Source: Nitrospirota bacterium (GTDB lineage Bacteria > Nitrospirota > UBA9217). From it: 64,000 nucleotides of DNA. The translations under genes were made by a program, and so were the position numbers. Where the stretch lies: positions 704,001 to 768,000 of the forward strand of contig CAWFSF010000002.1 in the NCBI GenBank assembly GCA_963818475.1. The letters are read 5' to 3'. The notes beneath the pieces are model-generated. The model was not told the DNA's origin, did no database searches, and saw only the letters and a list, made by a program, of their open reading frames with translations. Positions 6,492 through 23,081 of this stretch are shown here, one piece after another (the stretch's first letter is position 1; every line of letters begins with the position of its first letter).

Positions 6492-7860
6492 ATGTTTGAA
6501 ACGGACACCATATGCGCAGTATCGACCGCGCCGGGACAGGGCGGGATCGGCATCATCCGCGTGAGCGGAGGAGATGCTATTGAGATAGCATCGCTAGTGT
6601 TCCGCTCACGCACCGGGCTCGCTCTTGCTGATGCAATGACCCATACGATCCATTACGGCCATGTCGTAGATGCAGCAGGTGAGATCATCGACGAAGCGCT
6701 GGTGAGCATCATGCGTGCGCCCGCAACGTATACGCGGGAGGATGTTGTCGAGATCAACTGTCATGGCGGCATGATGCCGCTCTGGCGCACCGTCGCCGTG
6801 CTTGTTGCTTCCGGAGCGCGCCAGGCAGAGCCAGGCGAGTTCACGAAGCGCGCGTTCTTGAACGGCAGGATAGACCTTACCCAGGCCGAGGCCGTGATGG
6901 ACATCATTTCGGCGCGCACGGAGCGGGCTCATCAGGCGGCGAACGAGCAGCTTTTAGGCGGCCTTTCGAAAGAGGTCACAACACTCCGCGACCGATTGAT
7001 CGGCATCATCGCATCGGTTGAAGCGGGCATCGATTTTCCCGAAGAAGATATTGAAACCCAGTCCGGTGGGCCCCTGGCGCGTGAGATCGCGGCGCTGGCC
7101 GAGGATGTCGCGTTGTTGCAGTCGAGTTTTGCCGCAGGCAGGATCCTGCGCGAAGGCTTCGCAACAGCGATCGTGGGCAAGCCGAACGTGGGCAAGTCGT
7201 CGCTCTTGAACGCTCTCCTGAAACAGGACCGGGCGATCGTGACCGATATCCCGGGCACGACGAGGGATATTATCGAGGAGTTCCTGAACATCGATGGCGT
7301 GCCGATCAGGATCGTGGATACCGCAGGCATACGACACAGCCATGATGTGGTGGAGCAGGAAGGTGTGCGCAGAAGCCATGCGGCCATCGAATCGGCCGAC
7401 ATCGTGCTCGTTGTGCTCGACAGCTCCGAACCGCTTTCCGACGAGGACCAGCAGGTGCTCAATGGCATCACTGAAAAGAAGGCTGTCCTGGTACTGAACA
7501 AAGCGGACAAGCCGAGGACAGCTTGAGCAGATAGCTTTGCCGCATCAGCAAGTCTCGCTCTCGTGCCGTACCGGTGAAGGGCTTTCGTTACTCAAGAACG
7601 CGATAGCTGCCATGGCCAAACAGGGTATGGTCATGCCGAAAGAGCATGCCTGGGCGGTGAACCAGCGGCATGTGTTCGCCCTTAACCAGGCGAAAGCAAG
7701 CTTGGACAAAGCGCTTGAGTCGGCTAGTGCCGCGCAATCGCCGGAGTTCATTGCTGTCGATCTCCGTGGCGCGCTGGACAGCCTGGGGCTGATTATCGGC
7801 GCGACCTATACGGATGATATCCTGGAGCGGATATTTAGTGAGTTCTGTATTGGGAAATAA
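6492..7860 (+). CDS. mnmE: tRNA modification GTPase MnmE, frameshift near 7520
   Basis: [34 protein letters not shown]; C-terminal FSEFCIGK in ORF 7537-7860. Confidence 0.95.
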
Positions 7861-7876
7861 GGGATGGGAACCGCTA

Positions 7877-8173
7877 ATGAACACTAATGAACGCGAATTG
7901 CTTTTGAAGAATGAGGTTTATCAAATTGTGGGCGCGGCTATGGAAGTATCGAATCAGTTGGGTTGCGGTTTTCTGGAGGCGGTTTATCAGGAGGCTTTGG
8001 GGATTGAACTTGTTGAGCGAAAGACTCGAATGAAAACGGTATGTCAATACAAAGGGGAACCGCTAACAGCCTCAACGCCAGATGTAAAAGAAATTATTAG
8101 CGTCCATTCGTGTGTATTCGCGGACAAATTCCCCGCTGCACGCAACGGCGAATTGCAAGTTAAACCTTTATGA
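7877..8173 (+). pseudogene. Truncated GxxExxY (PD-(D/E)XK-type) protein gene
   Basis: [29 protein letters not shown] carries GxxExxY; the C-terminal nuclease motifs are missing after YKGEPL; flanked by a 28-nt inverted repeat. Confidence 0.75.
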
Positions 8174-10047
8174 CCCTTCAAAAACCATACGACGTCATTG
8201 TCATCGGCGCAGGCCATGCCGGGTGCGAGGCCGCGCTTGCTGCCGCGCGCATGGGCGCTTCCACGCTCATGCTCACCATGAACCTGGACAGCATCGCGCT
8301 CATGTCCTGCAACCCCGCTATCGGCGGTCTGGCCAAGGGACATCTCGTGAAGGAGATCGATGCCCTGGGCGGGGAGATGGGGAAGATCATCGACCGGACC
8401 GGCATCCAGTTCCGCACGTTGAACAAGAGCAAGGGACCGGCCGTGCGCGGTACTCGGGCCCAGGCAGACAAGCAGCGCTACCGCATTGCTATGAAAGAGT
8501 CGGTCGAGAAGCAGCCGCAGCTTGATGTGAAGCAGGGGCTGGTTGAGAAGCTTCTTGTTGAGGACAACAGGATCGTTGGGGTTGAGACGAACATCGGCGT
8601 TCAGTACCTTTCTTCTACAGTGATCATCACCACCGGCACATTCTTAAAAGGCCTTATTCATATCGGGCTCGTGCACTATCCTTCAGGCAGGGCAGGGGAG
8701 TTCCCGTCAGTTGGGTTGTCTGACAGCTTGAGGGAATTGGGATTCGAGATCGCCAGGCTCAAGACCGGAACACCCGCGCGTTTGAACGGAAGGACCATTG
8801 ATTTTTCGACGATGAAGCCGCAGCCAGGAGACGACCCGGCGCCGTTCTTCTCATTCACCGAAAATATTCATCCACTCCCACAAGTACCCTGCTATTTAAC
8901 TTACACAAGCACAGTTACCCATGAAATAATACGCAATAACCTTGACCGTTCCCCACTTTATGCTGGAATCATAAAAGGTACCGGCCCGCGCTATTGCCCG
9001 TCCATTGAGGATAAGGTAATGCGGTTCTCTGACCGAGAGCGGCATCAGGTCTTTCTGGAACCAGAGGGGCTGGACACTGAAGAGTACTATGCCAACGGCG
9101 TATCAACGAGCCTGCCTTATGATGTGCAGTTGATGTTGTATCGCTCCATCGCAGGTCTCGAAGAAGTTGAGATCATGCGTCCAGCTTATGCTATTGAATA
9201 CGACTTCGCGCCGCCGACACAGATCAAGCATTCGCTCGAGACGAAGAAGATCACGGGCGTTTACTTTGCGGGCCAGATCAACGGGACCTCGGGGTATGAA
9301 GAAGCTGCAGCCCAGGGGCTGATGGCCGGCATCAATGCAGCGCTCTCCGTGCAGAAGCGTCCGCCGCTCATACTCTCCCGTGCCGAAGCATACATCGGTG
9401 TTCTTATCGATGACCTGGTGACGCGCGGGACACTGGAGCCTTACCGCATGTTCACTTCGCGCGCGGAGTACCGGCTGATCCTGCGCGAAGACAACGCTGA
9501 TCAACGGCTCCGCCTTCACGGGCATGAAGTCGGGCTGGTGTCTGACGATGTCTTTCAACAATATAAAGAAAAGCAGTCATCGATCGAGCAGGAGATTTCG
9601 CGGCTCAGAAAGATATGGATAAAACCCGGGCCGGACGTTAATGAACTGTTGCTCAAGAAGGGGACGGCAGCGCTTTCGGCGGAAGCGTCTCTTGACCAGC
9701 TGCTCAAACGGCCGGAACTGGGATACGAAGAGATCGAAAGAATAAGCCCGCCGGAAGAGCCGCTCGCAGCTGCGGCCGAAGAACAGGTCGAGATCCAGGT
9801 GAAGTACGAGGGCTACATTCAGCGCCAGCTCGAACAGGTGGAGCGCTTCGCTTCGCTCGAACAAAAAGAAGTTCCCGCTGACCTGGACTACGACGCCATA
9901 ACCGGGCTCGGCGCCGAGGTCAAACAGAAGCTGAAGCAGGTGCGGCCGGTTTCGCTCGGCCAGGCTTCGCGCATCTCGGGCGTTACCCCGGCGGCGATAT
10001 CGCTTTTGATGGTGGCGCTTGAGAAACGGAAGAGAGGAAGAGCATAG
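8170..10047 (+). CDS. mnmG: tRNA uridine-5-carboxymethylaminomethyl modification enzyme MnmG (GidA)
   Basis: [54 protein letters not shown]. Confidence 0.97.
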
Positions 10048-17404: not shown

Positions 17405-20400
17405 ATGATCATTATGCATCTCTTCCGCACCCCAGCGCTCTCCGCTTACCAGACCACCGGCCTCTTGACAGCTGCTCAGCAAAAAGTTTCTCCCGCTATT
17501 CAGAAGATCGTGACGGAATTCTGTTTTAACGCAGCCGCAGAAAGCCCGCTCTCAGCCGATGAGATGCGCTTGCTGCGCTGGCTCCTTACCGAGACCTTCG
17601 AACCGAAGAACTTTTCGGACACCTCGTTTCTCAATCCGCAATCCGCAAGGAGACCTGTCCCGATCGAATCGGGAAATCCGCAATTGATTCTCGAAGTCGG
17701 TCCCCGCATGAACTTCACCACTGCCTGGTCCTCCAATGCGGTCTCGGTCTGCCAAGCCTGCGGCATTAAAAAAATAACGAGGATCGAACGCTCACGACGG
17801 TACCGGCTGGACCTTGCTCAGAACGCTTCGCTCTCCAAAGATCAGGAGCGGACCTTCCTTAGCCTCGTGCATGACCGCATGACCGAGTGCCCTTATCCAA
17901 AGCCGCTTGAAACTTTCGAGACCGGCATCAAGCCTGAACCCGTGCGCATCATCCCGCTCATGGAGCAGGGGAGGGCCGCGCTCGAAAAGATCAACCGCGA
18001 GATGGGCCTGGGGCTCGACGACTGGGACCTGGACTATTACACGAACCTCTTTGTAAAGGACATCAAGCGCAACCCGACGAACGTGGAGTGCTTCGACCTT
18101 TCGCAGTCCAACAGCGAGCACTCGCGCCACTGGTTCTTCCGCGGCAAGCTCATCGTTGACGGCAAGGAAGTTCCCGAAAACCTGATGAAGATCGTGAAGG
18201 CGACCTACGACGCGAACCCGAACAACAGCGTCATCGCCTTCAGCGACAACTCGAGCGCCATCACGGGCTACGACATTACCACCATCATCCCCGAGACCAT
18301 CGGCAAACCGTCGCCCTTCCGCCAGACGAAACGGAAGTACCATGTCATCCTGACGGCGGAAACGCACAACTTCCCGTCGGGCGTGGCGCCGTTCCCCGGC
18401 GCCGAGACCGGCACCGGCGGGCGCATCCGCGACGTGCAGGCGACCGGCACGGGCGGCCTCGTGGTCGCGGGCACGGCTGCCTACTGCGTGGGCAACCTCC
18501 GCATCCCGGGGTACGAGCTTCCCTGGGAAGACGCCTCATATGCTTATCCGAATAATCTTGCCTCGCCGCTGCAGATCGAGGTTGAAGCGAGCAACGGCGC
18601 GTCCGATTACGGCAACAAGTTCGGAGAGCCCGTGATCCAGGGATTCACCCGCTCCTTCGGCCTCCGGCTTCCCGACGGCGAGCGCAGGGAATGGCTCAAG
18701 CCGATCATGTTCAGCGCCGGCGTGGGCCAGATGGACGCCCGCCACACGGAAAAGACCGAGGCGCAGAAGGGCATGCTCGTGGTCAAGGTCGGCGGCCCGG
18801 CCTACCGCATCGGCATGGGCGGCGGAGCAGCCTCGTCCATGATCCAGGGCGAGAACGTGGCCGAGCTCGACTTTAACGCGGTGCAGCGCGGCGACGCTGA
18901 GATGGAACAGAAGATGAACCGCGTGATCCGCGCCTGCGTGGAGCTCGGGGAGAAGAACCCGATCCAGAGCATCCACGACCAGGGCGCAGGCGGCAACTGC
19001 AACGTGGTGAAGGAGATCGTGCATCCGGCAGGCGCCAAGATCGAGATCAGGAAGATCATTGTGGGCGATGCAACACTTTCGGTGCTCGAGATCTGGGGCG
19101 CCGAATATCAGGAGCAGAACGCGCTCCTGCTGAAGCCGGAGCACGAGGAACTCTTCCGTTCGCTCTGCGAGCGCGAGAAGATTCCTGTTGCCATCATCGG
19201 CACGATCACGGGCAACGGCTATATCGTTCTGTATGATGAGACAGACAACTCCACGCCCGAGAACCTTGAGCTTGCCAAGGTGCTGGGCGACATGCCGCAG
19301 AAGGTGTTCACGCTCGACCGGAAAAAGACCGAGCTCAAACCGCTCGAACTTCCGAAGGACCTGACCGTGCGCCAAGCGCTGGACCGCGTGCTGCGGCTCG
19401 TTTCGGTCGGGTCCAAGCGGTTCCTCACGAACAAGGTCGACCGCTCGGTCACGGGCCTGATCGCGCGTCAGCAATGCTGCGGCCCGCTCCAGCTCACGGT
19501 CTCCGACGTGGCGGTGATCGCCCAGTCGCACTTCGGCCTGACCGGCGCGGCCATCTCGATCGGCGAGCAGCCGATCAAGGAATTGATCGATCCCGCTGCC
19601 ATGGCCAGGATGAGCGTCGGCGAAGCGCTCACGAACATTGTCTGGGCAGAGGTCTCCGGGCTGGGCGATATCCGCTGCTCTGCCAACTGGATGTGGGCGC
19701 CCAAGCTCCCGGGCGAAGGTTCACGGCTCTATGATGCTGCAATCGCGATGCGCGATGTGATGATCGAGCTCGGCATGGCAGTGGACGGCGGCAAGGACAG
19801 CCTCTCCATGGCCGCAAAAGTAACGAACCCTGATGGAACGCACGAGACCGTGAAATCTCCCGGTACGCTCGTGATCTCCGCCTACGTCACCTGCCCGGAC
19901 ATTACAAAGACGATAACGCCGGACATCAAGATGCCGGGCAAGAGCAGGCTCCTGTTCATCGATCTCGGCAACGGACAGAACAGGCTCGGCGGTTCAGCGC
20001 TTGCGCAGGTCTTCGGACAGGTCGGTGACACGTTCGCCTGATCTCGACGATCCGCAGCTTCTCGCGAGGACGTTCAATGCCGTGCAGCAACTTGTCTCCG
20101 ATGAACTCATTCTCTCCGGCCACGACCGCTCCGACGGCGGACTGGCAACCACACTGCTTGAAATGGCCTTTGCCGGAAACTGCGGCATCGAGATCGATCT
20201 CGGAAAACAGAACGACACGATAGCAGCCCTGTTCTCGGAAGAGCTCGGGCTCGTGATGGAATATCTCCCCTCTGAAGAAGCGAAGATCTTCTCGATCCTC
20301 GACAAGGCAAACGTTCCCTATCAAGTCATCGGCAACACCACGCATGACCAACGCATCACTATTTCAATCCGAAATCCGCAATCCCCCGGCCTGCATCCTC

Positions 20401-21416
20401 TCTCCATTGGAACCGGGGCAGGCGAAATCCGCAATGTCCTAAGCGACTACACGTCACTGCTCCGGGACATCTGGGAAGCGACGAGCTATCAGCTCGATCT
20501 TCTGCAGCGGAACCCCGACAGCATCGAGGACGAGCGGAAGAACATCTATGACCGCAAAGGCCCTTCCTTTGTCGTGCCGTTCATACCAAAGCAGACAGCG
20601 GATGAGCTGTTCTGCAGAACGAACAAACCGAAGGTCGCCGTCATCCGTGAAGAAGGGAGCAATGGGGACCGCGAAATGGTCTCGGCCTTTTTCATGGCCG
20701 GGTTCGAGCCATGGGACGTGACCGTCACTGACCTGATCGAAGGCCGCATCACGCTCGACCAGTTCCGGGGCGTGGTCTTTGTGGGCGGGTTCAGCTATGC
20801 GGACGTGCTCGATTCCGCCAAAGGCTGGGCCGCTTCCATCCGGTTCAACAGAAAGGTCTGGGACCAGTTCGAAAAATTCTATCATCGCACCGACACGTTC
20901 AGCCTCGGCGTCTGCAACGGGTGCCAGCTCATGGCGCTCCTGGGCTGGGTCCCGTGGCGCGGCATCAGCGACGAGCTCCAGCCGCGCTTCATCCACAACA
21001 AGTCGGGACGGTTCGAATCACGCTTCTCGACCGTGAAGATCCTCAAGAGCCCGTCCATTATGCTTTCCGGCATGGAGAATGCCGTGCTCGGCATCTGGGT
21101 GGCGCACGGCGAAGGCCTGGCCTACTTCCCGGACAAGAACATGTTCAAGGAATGCGAACACGGCCTGGCACCGATCAGATACGTGAATGACGAATCAAGG
21201 ATAACTCAAGCCTATCCGTTCAACCCCAACGGCTCGCCCGCGGGCATTGCCGGGCTCTGCTCGCCCGATGGCCGTCACCTCGCCGTGATGCCGCACCCCG
21301 AGCGCGTTGTGCTGAACTGGCAATGGGGCTGGATGCCCGAGGAGATGAAGAAGTCCCTCGCCGCTTCTCCCTGGCTCAGGATGTTCCAGAATGCGCGGGA
21401 GTGGTGCGAGAAATAA
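17405..21416 (+). CDS. purL: Phosphoribosylformylglycinamidine synthase, large single-chain form, frameshift near 20030
   Basis: QSNSEHSRHWFF, ETHNFP, SIHDQGAGG, GGKDSLSM, HDRSDGG, glutaminase GVCNGCQ and MPHPER. Confidence 0.95.
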
Positions 21417-22195: not shown

Positions 22196-22335
22196 AAGCC
22201 CGCAAAAACAACGAACCATCCCCTTGGAAGACCCTCGTCCTTCGCCTCTTTTATCTCATGCTCGAAAATCAAATCCTTCCGGCGGCCCTTAGTAACTAAA
22301 GAATAAAATTCTTCTCAAAATAGCAGGAAAGTTTC

Positions 22336-22455
22336 CCACGAAGAACACGAAGCGCGCGAAGTTAAAATCAATATTTTGATATTGCCTTTTTCGACTTTTT
22401 CGTGATCTTCGTGCCCTTCGTGGTGGCTTTTTGGCTCCGGCTTGTTCGGGTTAGG
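22336..22455. repeat. Dispersed ~120 bp hairpin (MITE-like) repeat, copy 1
   Basis: CCACGAAGAACACGAAG...TTCGTGATCTTCGTGCCCTTCGTGG...GGCTTTTTGGCTCCGG.TTGTTCGGGTTAGG; close copy at 48482-48605. Confidence 0.85.
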
Positions 22456-22565
22456 GATTGCAATGAAATGCACCTGCCTTGAAACAGCCGCCTTCGTCTG
22501 CTACAGTAAAAACAGGCACTGCTTTTGGCCCTTTGCCCAAAATCCCGTGACTAGAGGAGATGAAC

Positions 22566-22838
22566 ATGAAGAAAGTTCTTGCACTGGTAGTAGTGGCACT
22601 ACTCGCTGCATCTGCAGTTCTGGCAGCCGACATCGTCACGCTCAGTTCGAAGATGGGTGACGTCACCTTTAACCACAAGGTCCACAGCACGGGAACGGAA
22701 TGCACTGTCTGCCATGGAGAGGGCACGCCCGGGAAGCTGACGCTCGAAAAAGATCCAGCACACAAATTATGCATCGCTTGCCATGAAACAAAGAAAGCCG
22801 GGCCTACAAAATGTCAGGACTGCCACAAGAAAAAATGA
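22566..22838 (+). CDS. Periplasmic triheme cytochrome c7 (PpcA-like)
   Basis: Signal peptide; VTFNHKVH, CTVCH, AH..CIACH, GPTKCQDCHKKK. Confidence 0.9.
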   Translation: MKKVLALVVVALLAASAVLAADIVTLSSKMGDVTFNHKVHSTGTECTVCHGEGTPGKLTLEKDPAHKLCIACHETKKAGPTKCQDCHKKK

Positions 22839-22847
22839 TCTCCTCCC

Positions 22848-22875
22848 GGGCCCCGCAAGGGGCCTTTTCCTTTTC
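22848..22875 (+). terminator. Rho-independent terminator
   Basis: GGCCCC-GCAA-GGGGCC followed by TTTT. Confidence 0.7.
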
Positions 22876-23081
22876 CGACATTTCAACGCTTCTGCGTTTT
22901 AAAATGTTTTCCTGCTGGTATACGCATGCAACGAGGTCCTCGCGGCCGCCGCGCCGCGAAAATGCGCCTTTTATCTTGACACTCAAAAATGCCGAGTATA
23001 TATTTTTACCAGAACGATGGCGGAGAGGGATGCAGGGGAACGTGCTGCTTTCTTTCCTGACGCGTCATAAGGAGAACATCA

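What the first reader, a model, noticed from the sequence alone, without database searches (positions are those of the whole stretch)
7871..8123. GxxExxY gene enclosed in a periodic inverted repeat: possible parent of the window's hairpin family
Seen: arms CCGCTAATGAACACTAATGAACGCGAAT (7871-7898) and ATTAGCGTCCATTCGTGTGTATTCGCGG (8096-8123) pair at 22/28 positions. Each arm is about three 10-nt units, and the left arm supplies the start codon of a truncated GxxExxY gene wedged between mnmE and mnmG. Known: GxxExxY proteins are PD-(D/E)XK-fold proteins of unknown role. Inference: this is a decaying small mobile element made of a nuclease-like gene plus structured ends.
Basis: partly seen in the sequence, partly recalled or inferred. 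Interest (0 to 1): 0.72.

Follow-up and report, generated by a model that had tools for sequence, protein, structure and literature searches.

The report
Decayed nuclease cassette with periodic arms
Between two tRNA-modification genes lies the broken remnant of a small nuclease gene bracketed by inverted arrays of 10-base units, one copy of a very widespread and apparently undescribed kind of hairpin cassette that behaves like a mobile element.

Summary
Arms 7871-7898 and 8096-8123 pair at 22 of 28 positions, both have a 10-nt period, and they enclose a GxxExxY (PD-(D/E)XK) gene that has lost its catalytic half.

Taken alone the repeat is only marginally above chance (about 1%). It belongs, however, to a family: an intact paralogue elsewhere in the genome and at least four gene-less hairpins share its arms. 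A species of the same genus has an empty hairpin of this family at the same mnmE-mnmG site.

The pattern is general:
- 9 of 11 GxxExxY loci in this genome are enclosed by such arms.
- 62 of 81 GxxExxY genes sampled from at least 15 phyla have two or more (mostly three) tandem CRCNRAN units upstream and the inverted set downstream.
- Arm sequence tracks the protein tree across phyla.
- Genomes with the gene hold a median of 58 such arm arrays; genomes without it hold a median of 1.
- Orthologous spacers in relatives carry different hairpins or none.
- Four-helix-bundle (rRNA-IVS-type) genes sit in analogous arms of 7-8-nt period.

Best reading: a dead copy of a selfish cassette, REPIN/RAYT-like in logic. 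That the nuclease acts on its own arms is inferred, not shown. Six literature searches found no description.

The parts
7871..7898 (.). Left arm: about three 10-nt units (CGCTAATGAA / CACTAATGAA / CGCGAAT). It holds the start codon.
   Evidence: 22 of 28 complementary to the right arm; period 10 (14 of 18). Homologous to left arms of five other copies.
7877..8173 (+). Truncated GxxExxY (PD-(D/E)XK, PF13366) open frame. Only residues 1 to about 63 are family-like; the rest is read-through into the loop, the right arm and the spacer.
   Evidence: The invariant D74, E84 and K86 of the family have no counterpart here.
7910..8065 (+). Stretch that matches the PDDEXK_3 profile (positions 2-57 of 117), including the G..E..Y motif.
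   Evidence: G000:C2:711910-712065.
8055..8066 (.). GGGAACCGCTAA, an exact direct repeat of 7866-7877. It is read as the remnant of a second left arm and as the deletion junction that removed the 3' half of the gene.
   Evidence: family D3. The intact paralogue has left arm - gene - second left arm - short loop - right arm.
8096..8123 (.). Right arm: the inverted copy of the three units.
   Evidence: 32 of 37 identical to the right arm of the paralogue over 8087-8123.
6492..7860 (+). mnmE (upstream host gene), split into two frames by one extra base near 7517.
8170..10047 (+). mnmG/gidA (downstream host gene).

Best explanation
The feature is a dead copy of a small selfish cassette: a gene of about 125 aa for a PD-(D/E)XK nuclease of the GxxExxY family, bracketed by two inverted arrays of about three short tandem units. 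Here the unit is CGCGAAT-type with a 10-nt period; across the protein family it is 8-10 nt with the core CRCNRAN.

Shown:
- Gene and arms are inherited and duplicated as one unit.
- The same architecture surrounds most members of the protein family in at least 15 phyla.
- Arm sequence follows the protein tree rather than the host phylum.
- The two arms match in register even at positions that differ between units.
- Genomes with the gene carry tens to hundreds of arrays of the same kind of arm, and in the window's own genome at least 136 gene-less hairpins.
- Intergenic sites gain, lose and swap these hairpins between species of one genus.

Inferred:
- The nuclease recognises the unit array or the hairpin/cruciform formed by its own arms, at the DNA level.
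- It thereby promotes copying or maintenance of gene-bearing and gene-less hairpins, as a RAYT does for REPINs.
- Gene-less hairpins can arise when two direct left arms recombine, or by internal deletion. The window copy is caught half-way through that process, and the congener G003 shows the end state.
For: Unit-hood: identity to the paralogue (84%, 136 of 162; right arm 32 of 37) begins and ends at the arms.

Enrichment: 9 of 11 GxxExxY loci in the genome are enclosed by periodic arms. Of 81 genes, 62 have at least 2 tandem units upstream and at least 2 inverted downstream. The opposite-polarity control gives 7 of 81 and random 390-nt intervals give 49 of 20000.

True inverted repeat: unit-variable positions agree in register in 349 of 405 cases, against 184 of 598 after a shift of one period (the arms were picked by best alignment, which favours the in-register figure).

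Co-variation: arm-unit labels change 21 times on the protein tree, against a mean of 37 and a minimum of 31 in 300 shuffles. One clade of 20 rows (SH-aLRT 98), whose 19 rows with a phylum on record span 9 phyla, has 15 CGCAGA and 2 CACAGA arms and 3 unlabelled rows.

Genome-level coupling in 61 genomes of the phylum: the 13 genomes with the gene hold a median of 58 triple-unit arrays. The 48 without it hold a median of 1, and 44 of those 48 hold 4 or fewer. Spearman 0.64. Six of six within-genus contrasts go the same way.

Mobility and turnover:
- G003 has an empty hairpin at the same site.
- Of 21 relatives' mnmE-mnmG spacers, 7 are short and bare, 5 hold hairpins of other families and 4 hold remnants.
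- Of 64 alignment junctions between G003 and the own genome, 18 hold periodic arms: 9 in the own genome only, 6 in G003 only, 3 in both.
- Several near-identical hairpin copies lie at different loci.

No RNA-strand bias in arm mismatches: 24 G.U-type against 28 A.C-type.

The protein folds confidently (pLDDT 90) as a restriction-endonuclease-like core, with D74, E84 and K86 conserved.
Against: - No binding or cleavage is shown, and no target-site duplication is established. There is a single clean insertion, with a possible ATAAA duplication.
- Gene-less hairpins share only the arms with gene-bearing copies; their loops are unrelated. They are therefore not simple internal deletions.
- Four-helix-bundle genes, which are not known enzymes, have the same architecture with arms of 7-8-nt period. 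The architecture thus does not require a nuclease.
- Coupling of genes and hairpins across genomes could be co-inheritance or co-invasion, and kin are not independent.
- Some genomes without a detected gene hold arrays: G029 27, G043 15.
- In G046 only one of the three arm types that recur in the truncated listing (my own grouping of the listed matches) is matched by one of its three genes.
- The window copy's stem is weak: z -0.15.
Confidence: 0.5

Rival explanations
1. An RNA-level cassette like a ribosomal intervening sequence. The arms form a double-stranded RNA stem of about 24-30 bp in a read-through transcript. RNase III cuts the stem and releases or insulates the small ORF, so that the insert is tolerated inside operons. 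The protein does something unrelated to spreading the hairpins, which spread by another route.
For: The known 23S rRNA IVS of Coxiella is a 428-nt selfish element carrying a four-helix-bundle ORF (S23p) and is excised by RNase III (PMC4990558, abstract read). Genes of that same family sit in analogous periodic hairpins in this genome (5 of 5 loci above cut-off) and in most of 28 loci from the phylum. Total arm length stays near 24-30 nt whatever the unit period. The window element sits between two co-oriented genes, and no promoter-like site lies in 7600-8400. Arms match in register at variable positions, as expected for a selected stem.
Against: Arm mismatches show no excess of G.U-compatible types on the sense strand (24 against 28), and 58 of 110 mismatches are transversions. 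Most hairpins carry no ORF at all (at least 136 with loops under 150 nt). No Rfam family matches (20 loci at E up to 0.1, and the window at gathering score). The single 23S gene found in this genome has no large insert (3002 nt for a model of 2925 positions). This reading does not explain why arm sequence co-varies with the protein, unless by plain co-inheritance.
Confidence: 0.25
2. The hairpins are host-serving or neutral intergenic structures (mRNA 3' stabilisers, nucleoid-protein sites or recombination hot spots). GxxExxY and four-helix-bundle proteins are domesticated factors that bind the repeat units, or are cargo that preferentially lands in pre-existing hairpins.
For: In 21 of 81 loci a complete hairpin lies downstream of the gene, and some genes have only that downstream hairpin, for example G000:C2:774195-774584. 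Different hairpin families occupy the same orthologous spacer in congeners, as if the site rather than the element were selected. Many hairpins sit within conserved flanking modules.
Against: Close protein relatives (68-81% identity) in Chloroflexota, Lentisphaerota and other lineages carry the same arms. That points to transfer of the whole cassette, not landing in local hairpins. Several GxxExxY copies in this genome are broken (frameshifts, internal stops or fragments), which is typical of selfish rather than domesticated genes. No terminator-like tail follows the arms.
Confidence: 0.12
3. A chance inverted repeat around an ordinary pseudogene.
For: Alone, the 22-of-28 repeat is reached by about 1% of random intervals, and the stretch folds no better than its shuffles.
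Against: The same arms flank the intact paralogue and gene-less copies. The same architecture recurs in 62 of 81 family members against 0.25% of random intervals.
Confidence: 0.02

Closest known systems
REPIN-RAYT systems (REP doublets and their REP-associated tyrosine transposase)
   Same: A single gene is flanked by the repeat in inverted orientation. Many gene-less inverted doublets that fold as hairpins are scattered in intergenic DNA of the same genome. Arms are better conserved than the spacer. Repeat families are paired with particular genes. (Known from PMC3116915 and PMC3337134: search listing and start of abstracts only; the rest is recalled.)
   Different: The enzyme is a PD-(D/E)XK fold of about 125 aa, not a Y1/HUH transposase. 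The arms are arrays of about three 8-10-nt tandem units rather than a single palindrome. Several families coexist per genome, many gene copies are decayed, and cassettes cross phyla, whereas REPIN-RAYT systems are described as mostly vertically inherited (start of abstract of bioRxiv 10.1101/2022.05.22.493013).
23S rRNA intervening sequences carrying a four-helix-bundle ORF (for example the Coxiella IVS with S23p)
   Same: A small ORF is enclosed by a long stem; the size is about 0.4-0.5 kb; the element is regarded as selfish; it is transferred horizontally (PMC4990558, abstract). The same ORF family sits in periodic hairpins in this genome.
   Different: The window element lies between protein-coding genes, not in rRNA. 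Its ORF is a nuclease-fold protein, not a helical bundle. RNase III processing is untested here, and arm mismatches give no sign of selection on the RNA strand.
Miniature inverted-repeat transposable elements and their autonomous parents
   Same: Terminal inverted repeats, many short non-coding copies, presence/absence between relatives.
   Different: Gene-less copies share only the arms with gene-bearing ones. No recognised transposase is present. A target-site duplication is not established.
Short tandemly repeated repetitive (heptamer) sequences of cyanobacteria
   Same: Intergenic arrays of 7-nt units, as around the four-helix-bundle genes here. The comparison is recalled; the search returned only papers that mention the term in passing.
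   Different: Those are described as direct arrays. Here the arrays come in inverted pairs around or without a gene, and the GxxExxY type has 8-10-nt units.

Membership tests
GxxExxY / PDDEXK_3 (PF13366, TIGR04256) | Profile match above the curated cut-off | tested here: met
   43.6 bits against a cut-off of 22; 43.9 bits against 35. Only profile positions 2-57 of 117 are covered.
GxxExxY / PDDEXK_3 (PF13366, TIGR04256) | G-x-x-E-x-x-Y motif | tested here: met
   G, E and Y align with the invariant G31, E34 and Y37 of the family.
GxxExxY / PDDEXK_3 (PF13366, TIGR04256) | PD-(D/E)XK catalytic core (D74 ... E84-x-K86 in the paralogue) and a full length of about 125 aa | tested here: not met
   The window frame diverges after about residue 63 and has no counterpart of D74, E84 or K86. 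It is a pseudogene of the family. The intact paralogue meets the feature.
REPIN-RAYT-like system | Gene flanked by the repeat in inverted orientation | tested here: met
REPIN-RAYT-like system | Population of gene-less inverted doublets with the same arms in the same genome | tested here: met
   Four gene-less CGCGAAT-type hairpins. At least 136 periodic hairpins with loops under 150 nt genome-wide, including 33 CACGAAG and 19 CACGGAG.
REPIN-RAYT-like system | Gene encodes a Y1/HUH (IS200/IS605-type) transposase | tested here: not met
   Pfam and NCBIfam give only PDDEXK_3 / GxxExxY. The predicted fold is restriction-endonuclease-like.
REPIN-RAYT-like system | The protein acts on the repeat (binds, cleaves, mobilises) | not testable with these tools
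   Needs biochemistry or a genetic assay.
rRNA intervening sequence (IVS) | Inserted in a 23S rRNA helix | tested here: not met
   The element lies between mnmE and mnmG. The 23S gene of the genome spans 3002 nt for a model of 2925 positions.
rRNA intervening sequence (IVS) | Stem cut by RNase III | not testable with these tools
   No RNA run holds the stretch.
MITE / TIR transposon | Target-site duplication at insertions | tested here: inconclusive
   One clean filled/empty pair (own C2:497817-498018 against G003) has ATAAA at both ends. No duplication is evident around the CGCGAAT-type copies.
Intrinsic terminator | G+C-rich stem followed by a T run | tested here: not met
   No terminator-like site at the arms.

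The most novel reading that the evidence does not exclude
GxxExxY proteins are the enzymes of a new, very widespread class of bacterial mobile hairpin elements. Each nuclease lineage would read an array of about three short units on either arm and copy or maintain both its own cassette and a genome-wide population of gene-less hairpins. Four-helix-bundle cassettes with arms of 7-8-nt period, including the rRNA intervening sequences and perhaps the heptamer repeat arrays of cyanobacteria, would be a parallel branch of the same kind of element.
Probability: 0.3. Interest if true: 0.9.

Novelty: new variant of a known kind. Interest (0 to 1): 0.78.

Why it matters
GxxExxY / PDDEXK_3 is a large family with no assigned role. 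A single-sequence search gave 13,803 representative clusters at E up to 0.001 and 3,501 at E up to 1e-10. No structure of it is solved, and the PD-(D/E)XK survey lists its function as unknown (PMC3424549, table row seen).

The results here give the family a concrete and testable context. Its genes almost always sit between inverted arrays of short units that co-vary with the protein, and their presence goes with large populations of intergenic hairpins. That makes three long-standing questions directly testable:
- What these proteins cut or bind.
- Where the abundant periodic intergenic hairpins of many environmental bacteria come from.
- How the ORF-bearing intervening sequences of rRNA genes arose.

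A nuclease lineage that reads a short repeated word with lineage-specific sequence would also be of practical interest.

Tried and rejected
- Expression: no RNA holder is listed for window 6500-9500, so nothing can be said about transcription or processing.
- DNA contigs of four runs, laid at 85% likeness, showed joints 7895->8088 and 7899->8087 with 11-12 other letters between. These look like empty hairpins. A loose end matches the flank of the paralogous copy at G000:C6:2080953, so the contigs may come from paralogues or from other organisms. They are not used as evidence.
- Complex prediction with two copies of the protein: no verdict (score 0.00).
- Solved structures by sequence: nothing below E 0.6.
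- Fold searches gave only the general PD-(D/E)XK / restriction-endonuclease fold: best 3ijm Z 7.8, Cas4 SSO0001 E 1.4e-4, Hjc Z 5.8. This is too unspecific to choose a substrate.
- PADLOC gave only a weak Cas4 hit for one of three proteins (E 5e-4), and PHROGs gave none for the three. A defence-system or phage reading has no support.
- Rfam: no family for 20 loci at E up to 0.1, and only two tRNAs in the window.
- Neighbour orientation: the upstream gene is co-oriented in 9 of 11 own GxxExxY loci and 4 of 5 four-helix-bundle loci, and in 24 of 33 callable foreign loci, with 38 unclear. About 70% is roughly what adjacent bacterial genes show anyway (recalled), so this was dropped as evidence.
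- The ungapped arm scores are a weak statistic. Only 30 of 77 loci exceed the maximum of the mismatched-pair control, because unrelated loci share the same unit words. The unit-count test replaced it.
- A strict one-gene-per-hairpin-family rule was rejected. In this genome two arm types (TGCAAAW, 6 hairpins; CGCAGAT, 4 hairpins) have no gene among the GxxExxY and four-helix-bundle loci examined. In G046 only one of three recurring arm types has a gene.

Full report
**1. The observation**

The sequence is as described. The left arm 7871-7898 and the reverse complement of 8096-8123 agree at 22 of 28 positions. Each arm has a clear 10-nt period: 14 of 18 self-matches in the left arm and 12 of 18 in the right, against 2-6 at other shifts.

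The ATG at 7877 lies inside the left arm and opens the frame 7877-8173. Residues 12-63 of that frame match PF13366 positions 2-57 of 117 (E 4.3e-11) and TIGR04256 'GxxExxY'. The neighbours are mnmE and mnmG.

Alone the repeat is weak. Its score is reached by 1.0% of 2000 random intervals and by 0.65% of 2000 shuffles. The 273-nt stretch folds no better than its shuffles (z -0.15), although the arms do pair in the minimum-energy and centroid folds. No promoter-like or terminator-like site lies on the element.

**2. It is one decayed member of a family**

The genome (G000, 4.66 Mb, 7 contigs) has 13 profile matches that make up 11 GxxExxY loci.

The closest paralogue, at C6:1803863-1804261, is intact. 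The window element is 84% identical to it (136 of 162), from the first base of the left arm to mid-gene. The right arms are 32 of 37 identical. Similarity stops at the arm ends.

The paralogue reads: left arm - gene - second left arm - 21-nt A-rich loop - right arm. In the window the gene breaks off after the Y-K-G of the middle strand, at GGGAACCGCTAA. This is an exact 12-nt repeat of the start of the left arm. I read it as the stump of the second left arm, left by a deletion that removed the half of the gene holding the invariant D74, E84 and K86.

Four gene-less hairpins share the same arms and have short A-rich loops: C6:489989, C1:251297, C6:1960079 and C6:2080953. The last of these also carries about 30 nt of the 3' end of mnmE, so it was copied from this very site.

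**3. Presence, absence and replacement at the same site**

In G003, a species of the same genus (genes about 92% identical), the mnmE-mnmG spacer holds left arm - 18-nt loop - right arm of the same family and no gene. In G005 the spacer holds an unrelated 4.3-kb island instead.

Twenty-one relatives have both genes on one locus:
- 7 have bare spacers of 5-60 nt (G017, G011, G014, G015, G021, G040, G032).
- 2 have an unrelated palindrome.
- G003 has the empty hairpin of this family.
- 5 carry periodic hairpins of other unit types: G016 GCAAAGG; G023 CACAGAG and others; G012 and G010 CGCAGATT; G024 CACGGAT.
- 4 carry remnants (G020, G013, G007, G019).
- 2 carry none of these (G022, G009).

I compared the 419-kb contig G003:C6 with the own genome. 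Of 64 alignment junctions, 18 hold periodic arms: 9 in the own genome only, 6 in G003 only, 3 in both. Where both have a hairpin, it is often of a different family. One clean filled/empty pair shows a 200-nt insert with ATAAA at both ends. That is too little to claim a target-site duplication.

**4. The architecture is general for the protein family**

In the own genome 9 of 11 GxxExxY loci are enclosed by inverted arrays of about three units. The unit types are CACGGAG, CACGAAG, GCAAAGG, CGCGAAT, CACGGAT, GCAGAGG and one weaker case. The exceptions are one gene with only a downstream hairpin and one with arms in direct orientation.

A scan of one genome per species returned 80 loci from at least 15 phyla. 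I dropped 5 loci with stops or breaks and added 6 intact own genes, giving 81 genes:
- 62 of 81 have at least 2 tandem CRCNRAN units upstream and at least 2 inverted units downstream, most often exactly 3 and 3.
- The opposite polarity occurs in 7 of 81.
- Random 390-nt intervals of this hairpin-rich genome pass in 49 of 20000 cases.
- In 21 of 81 a further sense-oriented array follows the gene, so that a complete hairpin lies downstream, as in the paralogue.

The arms are true inverted copies and not merely arrays of one word. Positions that differ between units agree in register in 349 of 405 cases, against 184 of 598 after a shift of one period. The arms were chosen by best alignment, which favours the first figure.

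**5. Arms go with the protein, not with the host**

On a quick maximum-likelihood tree of the 81 proteins, the arm-unit label changes 21 times. Three hundred shuffles gave a mean of 37 and a minimum of 31. The phylum label changes 29 times, against a mean of 44 and a minimum of 39.

A clade of 20 rows (SH-aLRT 98) has 19 rows with a phylum on record, spanning 9 phyla: Planctomycetota, Bacteroidota, Pseudomonadota, Acidobacteriota, Verrucomicrobiota, Myxococcota, Nitrospirota, Methylomirabilota and Candidatus Coatesiibacteriota. It carries CGCAGA arms in 15 rows and CACAGA arms in 2; 3 rows are unlabelled.

The five closest relatives of the window's paralogue (68-81% identity) carry the same arm units, CGCGAAT-type with a 10-nt period. 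Two are from Chloroflexota, one from Lentisphaerota and two have no phylum on record.

Many forks of this tree are unresolved, and kin share labels. This shows co-inheritance of gene and arms across phyla, not recognition.

**6. Hairpin populations go with the gene**

The own genome holds 551 inverted repeats with arms of at least 20 nt, at least 78% complementarity and a span up to 1600 nt. Of these, 262 have periodic arms. They collapse to 190 clusters, 136 of which have loops under 150 nt. The classified types are 33 CACGAAG, 19 CACGGAG, 6 CGCRGAG, 6 TGCAAAW, 4 CGCGAAT, 4 CGCAGAT, 2 GCAAAGG and 1 CACGGAT. The other 61 are unclassified and are largely of 7-nt period, GCGGATT type.

Gene-less copies share only the arms with gene-bearing ones. 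Their loops vary, although sub-groups with near-identical loops and flanks occur at several loci.

In 61 genomes of the phylum:
- The 13 genomes with a GxxExxY match hold 2-281 triple-unit arrays, median 58.
- The 48 genomes without a match hold a median of 1, and 44 of them hold 4 or fewer. The exceptions are G029 with 27, G043 with 15, G056 with 6, and G038 with 133 against a backwards-pattern control of 100.
- Spearman correlation is 0.64.
- All six within-genus contrasts point the same way. For example, G015 has 2 genes and 12 arrays while its congener G070 has 0 genes and 1 array.

The rule is not strict. Two arm types of the own genome (TGCAAAW and CGCAGAT) have no gene among the loci examined. 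In G046 only one of the three arm types that recur in the truncated listing (my own grouping of the listed matches) is matched by one of its three genes.

**7. A second gene family in the same kind of frame**

All 5 four-helix-bundle genes above the PF05635 cut-off in this genome are enclosed by inverted arrays of 7-8-nt units. PF05635 is the family of the ORFs found in rRNA intervening sequences. Most of 28 such loci from other genomes of the phylum show the same by eye. The ungapped score exceeds the control maximum in only 4 of 28, because heptamer arrays slip out of register.

The frame 'inverted unit arrays around a small ORF' is therefore not tied to a nuclease. This is the main argument against a simple reading of the nuclease as a transposase.

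**8. DNA or RNA?**

In 48 of 77 foreign loci with well-scoring arms there are 110 arm mismatches. Of these, 24 would be G.U pairs in the sense RNA, 28 would be G.U pairs only in the antisense RNA, and 58 are transversions. There is thus no sign of selection on one RNA strand. This fits a DNA-level structure or symmetry, but with 52 informative sites it excludes only a strong bias.

No RNA data exist for this organism. No Rfam family covers the hairpins.

**9. The protein**

The intact paralogue folds with pLDDT 90 and pTM 0.83 into two N-terminal helices plus an alpha/beta core. The nearest solved folds are generic PD-(D/E)XK enzymes: 3ijm (Z 7.8), BpuSI, SwaI, Cas4 SSO0001 (Foldseek E 1.4e-4), lambda exonuclease and Hjc (Z 5.8). 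No relative is found among solved structures by sequence. The family is large: 13,803 clusters at E up to 0.001.

**10. Reading**

Shown:
- The window feature is a degraded GxxExxY cassette whose arms belong to the element.
- Such cassettes are the rule for this protein family across bacteria.
- They move between genomes as units.
- Their presence goes with populations of gene-less hairpins.
- The hairpin content of intergenic sites turns over quickly.

Inferred:
- The nuclease acts on its own arms or hairpins and so drives copying, by the logic of REPIN/RAYT.
- Recombination between duplicated left arms, or internal deletion, turns gene-bearing copies into empty hairpins. The series is: paralogue (complete), window (half deleted), G003 (empty).

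The IVS-like RNA reading is the serious rival. I give it 0.25 against 0.5 for the best explanation.

**11. Literature**

Searches for GxxExxY, PDDEXK_3, PF13366, TIGR04256 and TIGR02436 were made, together with combinations of intervening sequence / four-helix bundle / inverted repeat, STRR / heptanucleotide / hairpin, and PDDEXK / inverted repeats / hairpin / mobile. A further search for REPIN / RAYT was made only to find comparators. None returned a paper that describes this association.
- PMC3424549 lists PDDEXK_3 as of unknown function (table row).
- PMC8934634 mentions a GxxExxY domain once, for a gene that another tool (CRISPRone) identified as cas4 (one passage).
- PMC4679880 deals with direct heptamer repeats (passages).

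The library lacks most subscription journals, and database family descriptions could not be read. 'Not found' holds for these searches only.

Noticed in passing
window 7510-7540 (mnmE): mnmE is split into two frames (6492-7526 and 7537-7860) by one extra A near 7517, relative to the congener G003, whose mnmE is an intact 465-aa frame. Environmental contigs also lack one base at 7516 or 7519. This is either an assembly error or a real frameshift in an otherwise conserved gene.
   Followed up: partly
G000:C3:7573-8157; C6:1993523-1994046; C6:1705684-1706256; C6:2337678-2338476; C6:864422-865609: All five four-helix-bundle (PF05635, rRNA-IVS-type) genes of the genome sit between inverted arrays of 7-8-nt units. 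Most of 28 such loci in other genomes of the phylum look the same.
   Followed up: partly
G000:C2:399691-399891; C2:497817-498018; C5:584056-584206; also G003:C6 near 364659-364853: A 24-nt insert (TCGCTTAGAAGCGCCTACTTTTGG and close variants) recurs inside the right arms of periodic hairpins of different families, as if a still smaller element targets these arms.
   Followed up: no
window 20384-20423: A 38-nt insertion, absent in G003, interrupts the heptamer right arm of a GCGGATT-type hairpin. Its ends are inverted: CCTGC...GCAGG.
   Followed up: no
window 22208-22892; G000:C2:497817-498018; many CACGAAG-type copies: Many hairpins lie in a conserved frame: a GGCAAGAATAT-like module on one side and a TTTGGTTCCGG...CCGGGTTAGGG-like module on the other, in either orientation. 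The hairpin core within the frame differs between copies and between relatives.
   Followed up: no
G000:C6:2080953-2081065: This gene-less copy of the window's hairpin family also carries about 30 nt identical to the 3' end of mnmE, including its stop codon. The hairpin was therefore copied together with its left flank. G003 has the same copy, so the event predates the split of the two species.
   Followed up: partly
L158 (G005:C7:21000-26000): In congener G005 the mnmE-mnmG spacer holds a 4.3-kb island with genes for Bro-N, DUF2971, TPR and PIN-domain proteins.
   Followed up: partly
loci L019-L034, just after the mnmE stop codon: In 10 of the 16 family-level relatives with both genes on one locus (L019-L034), a conserved AATACGAATA-like word follows the mnmE stop codon, upstream of whatever hairpin is present. 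Its meaning is unknown.
   Followed up: no
L178 (G046:C67:26200-28500): Two GxxExxY cassettes with different arms (CGCAGAGG type and CGCCGAT type) occupy two spacers about 1 kb apart on one strand. By my reading of the flanking sequence these are tryptophan-biosynthesis genes; I ran no domain search on them.
   Followed up: no
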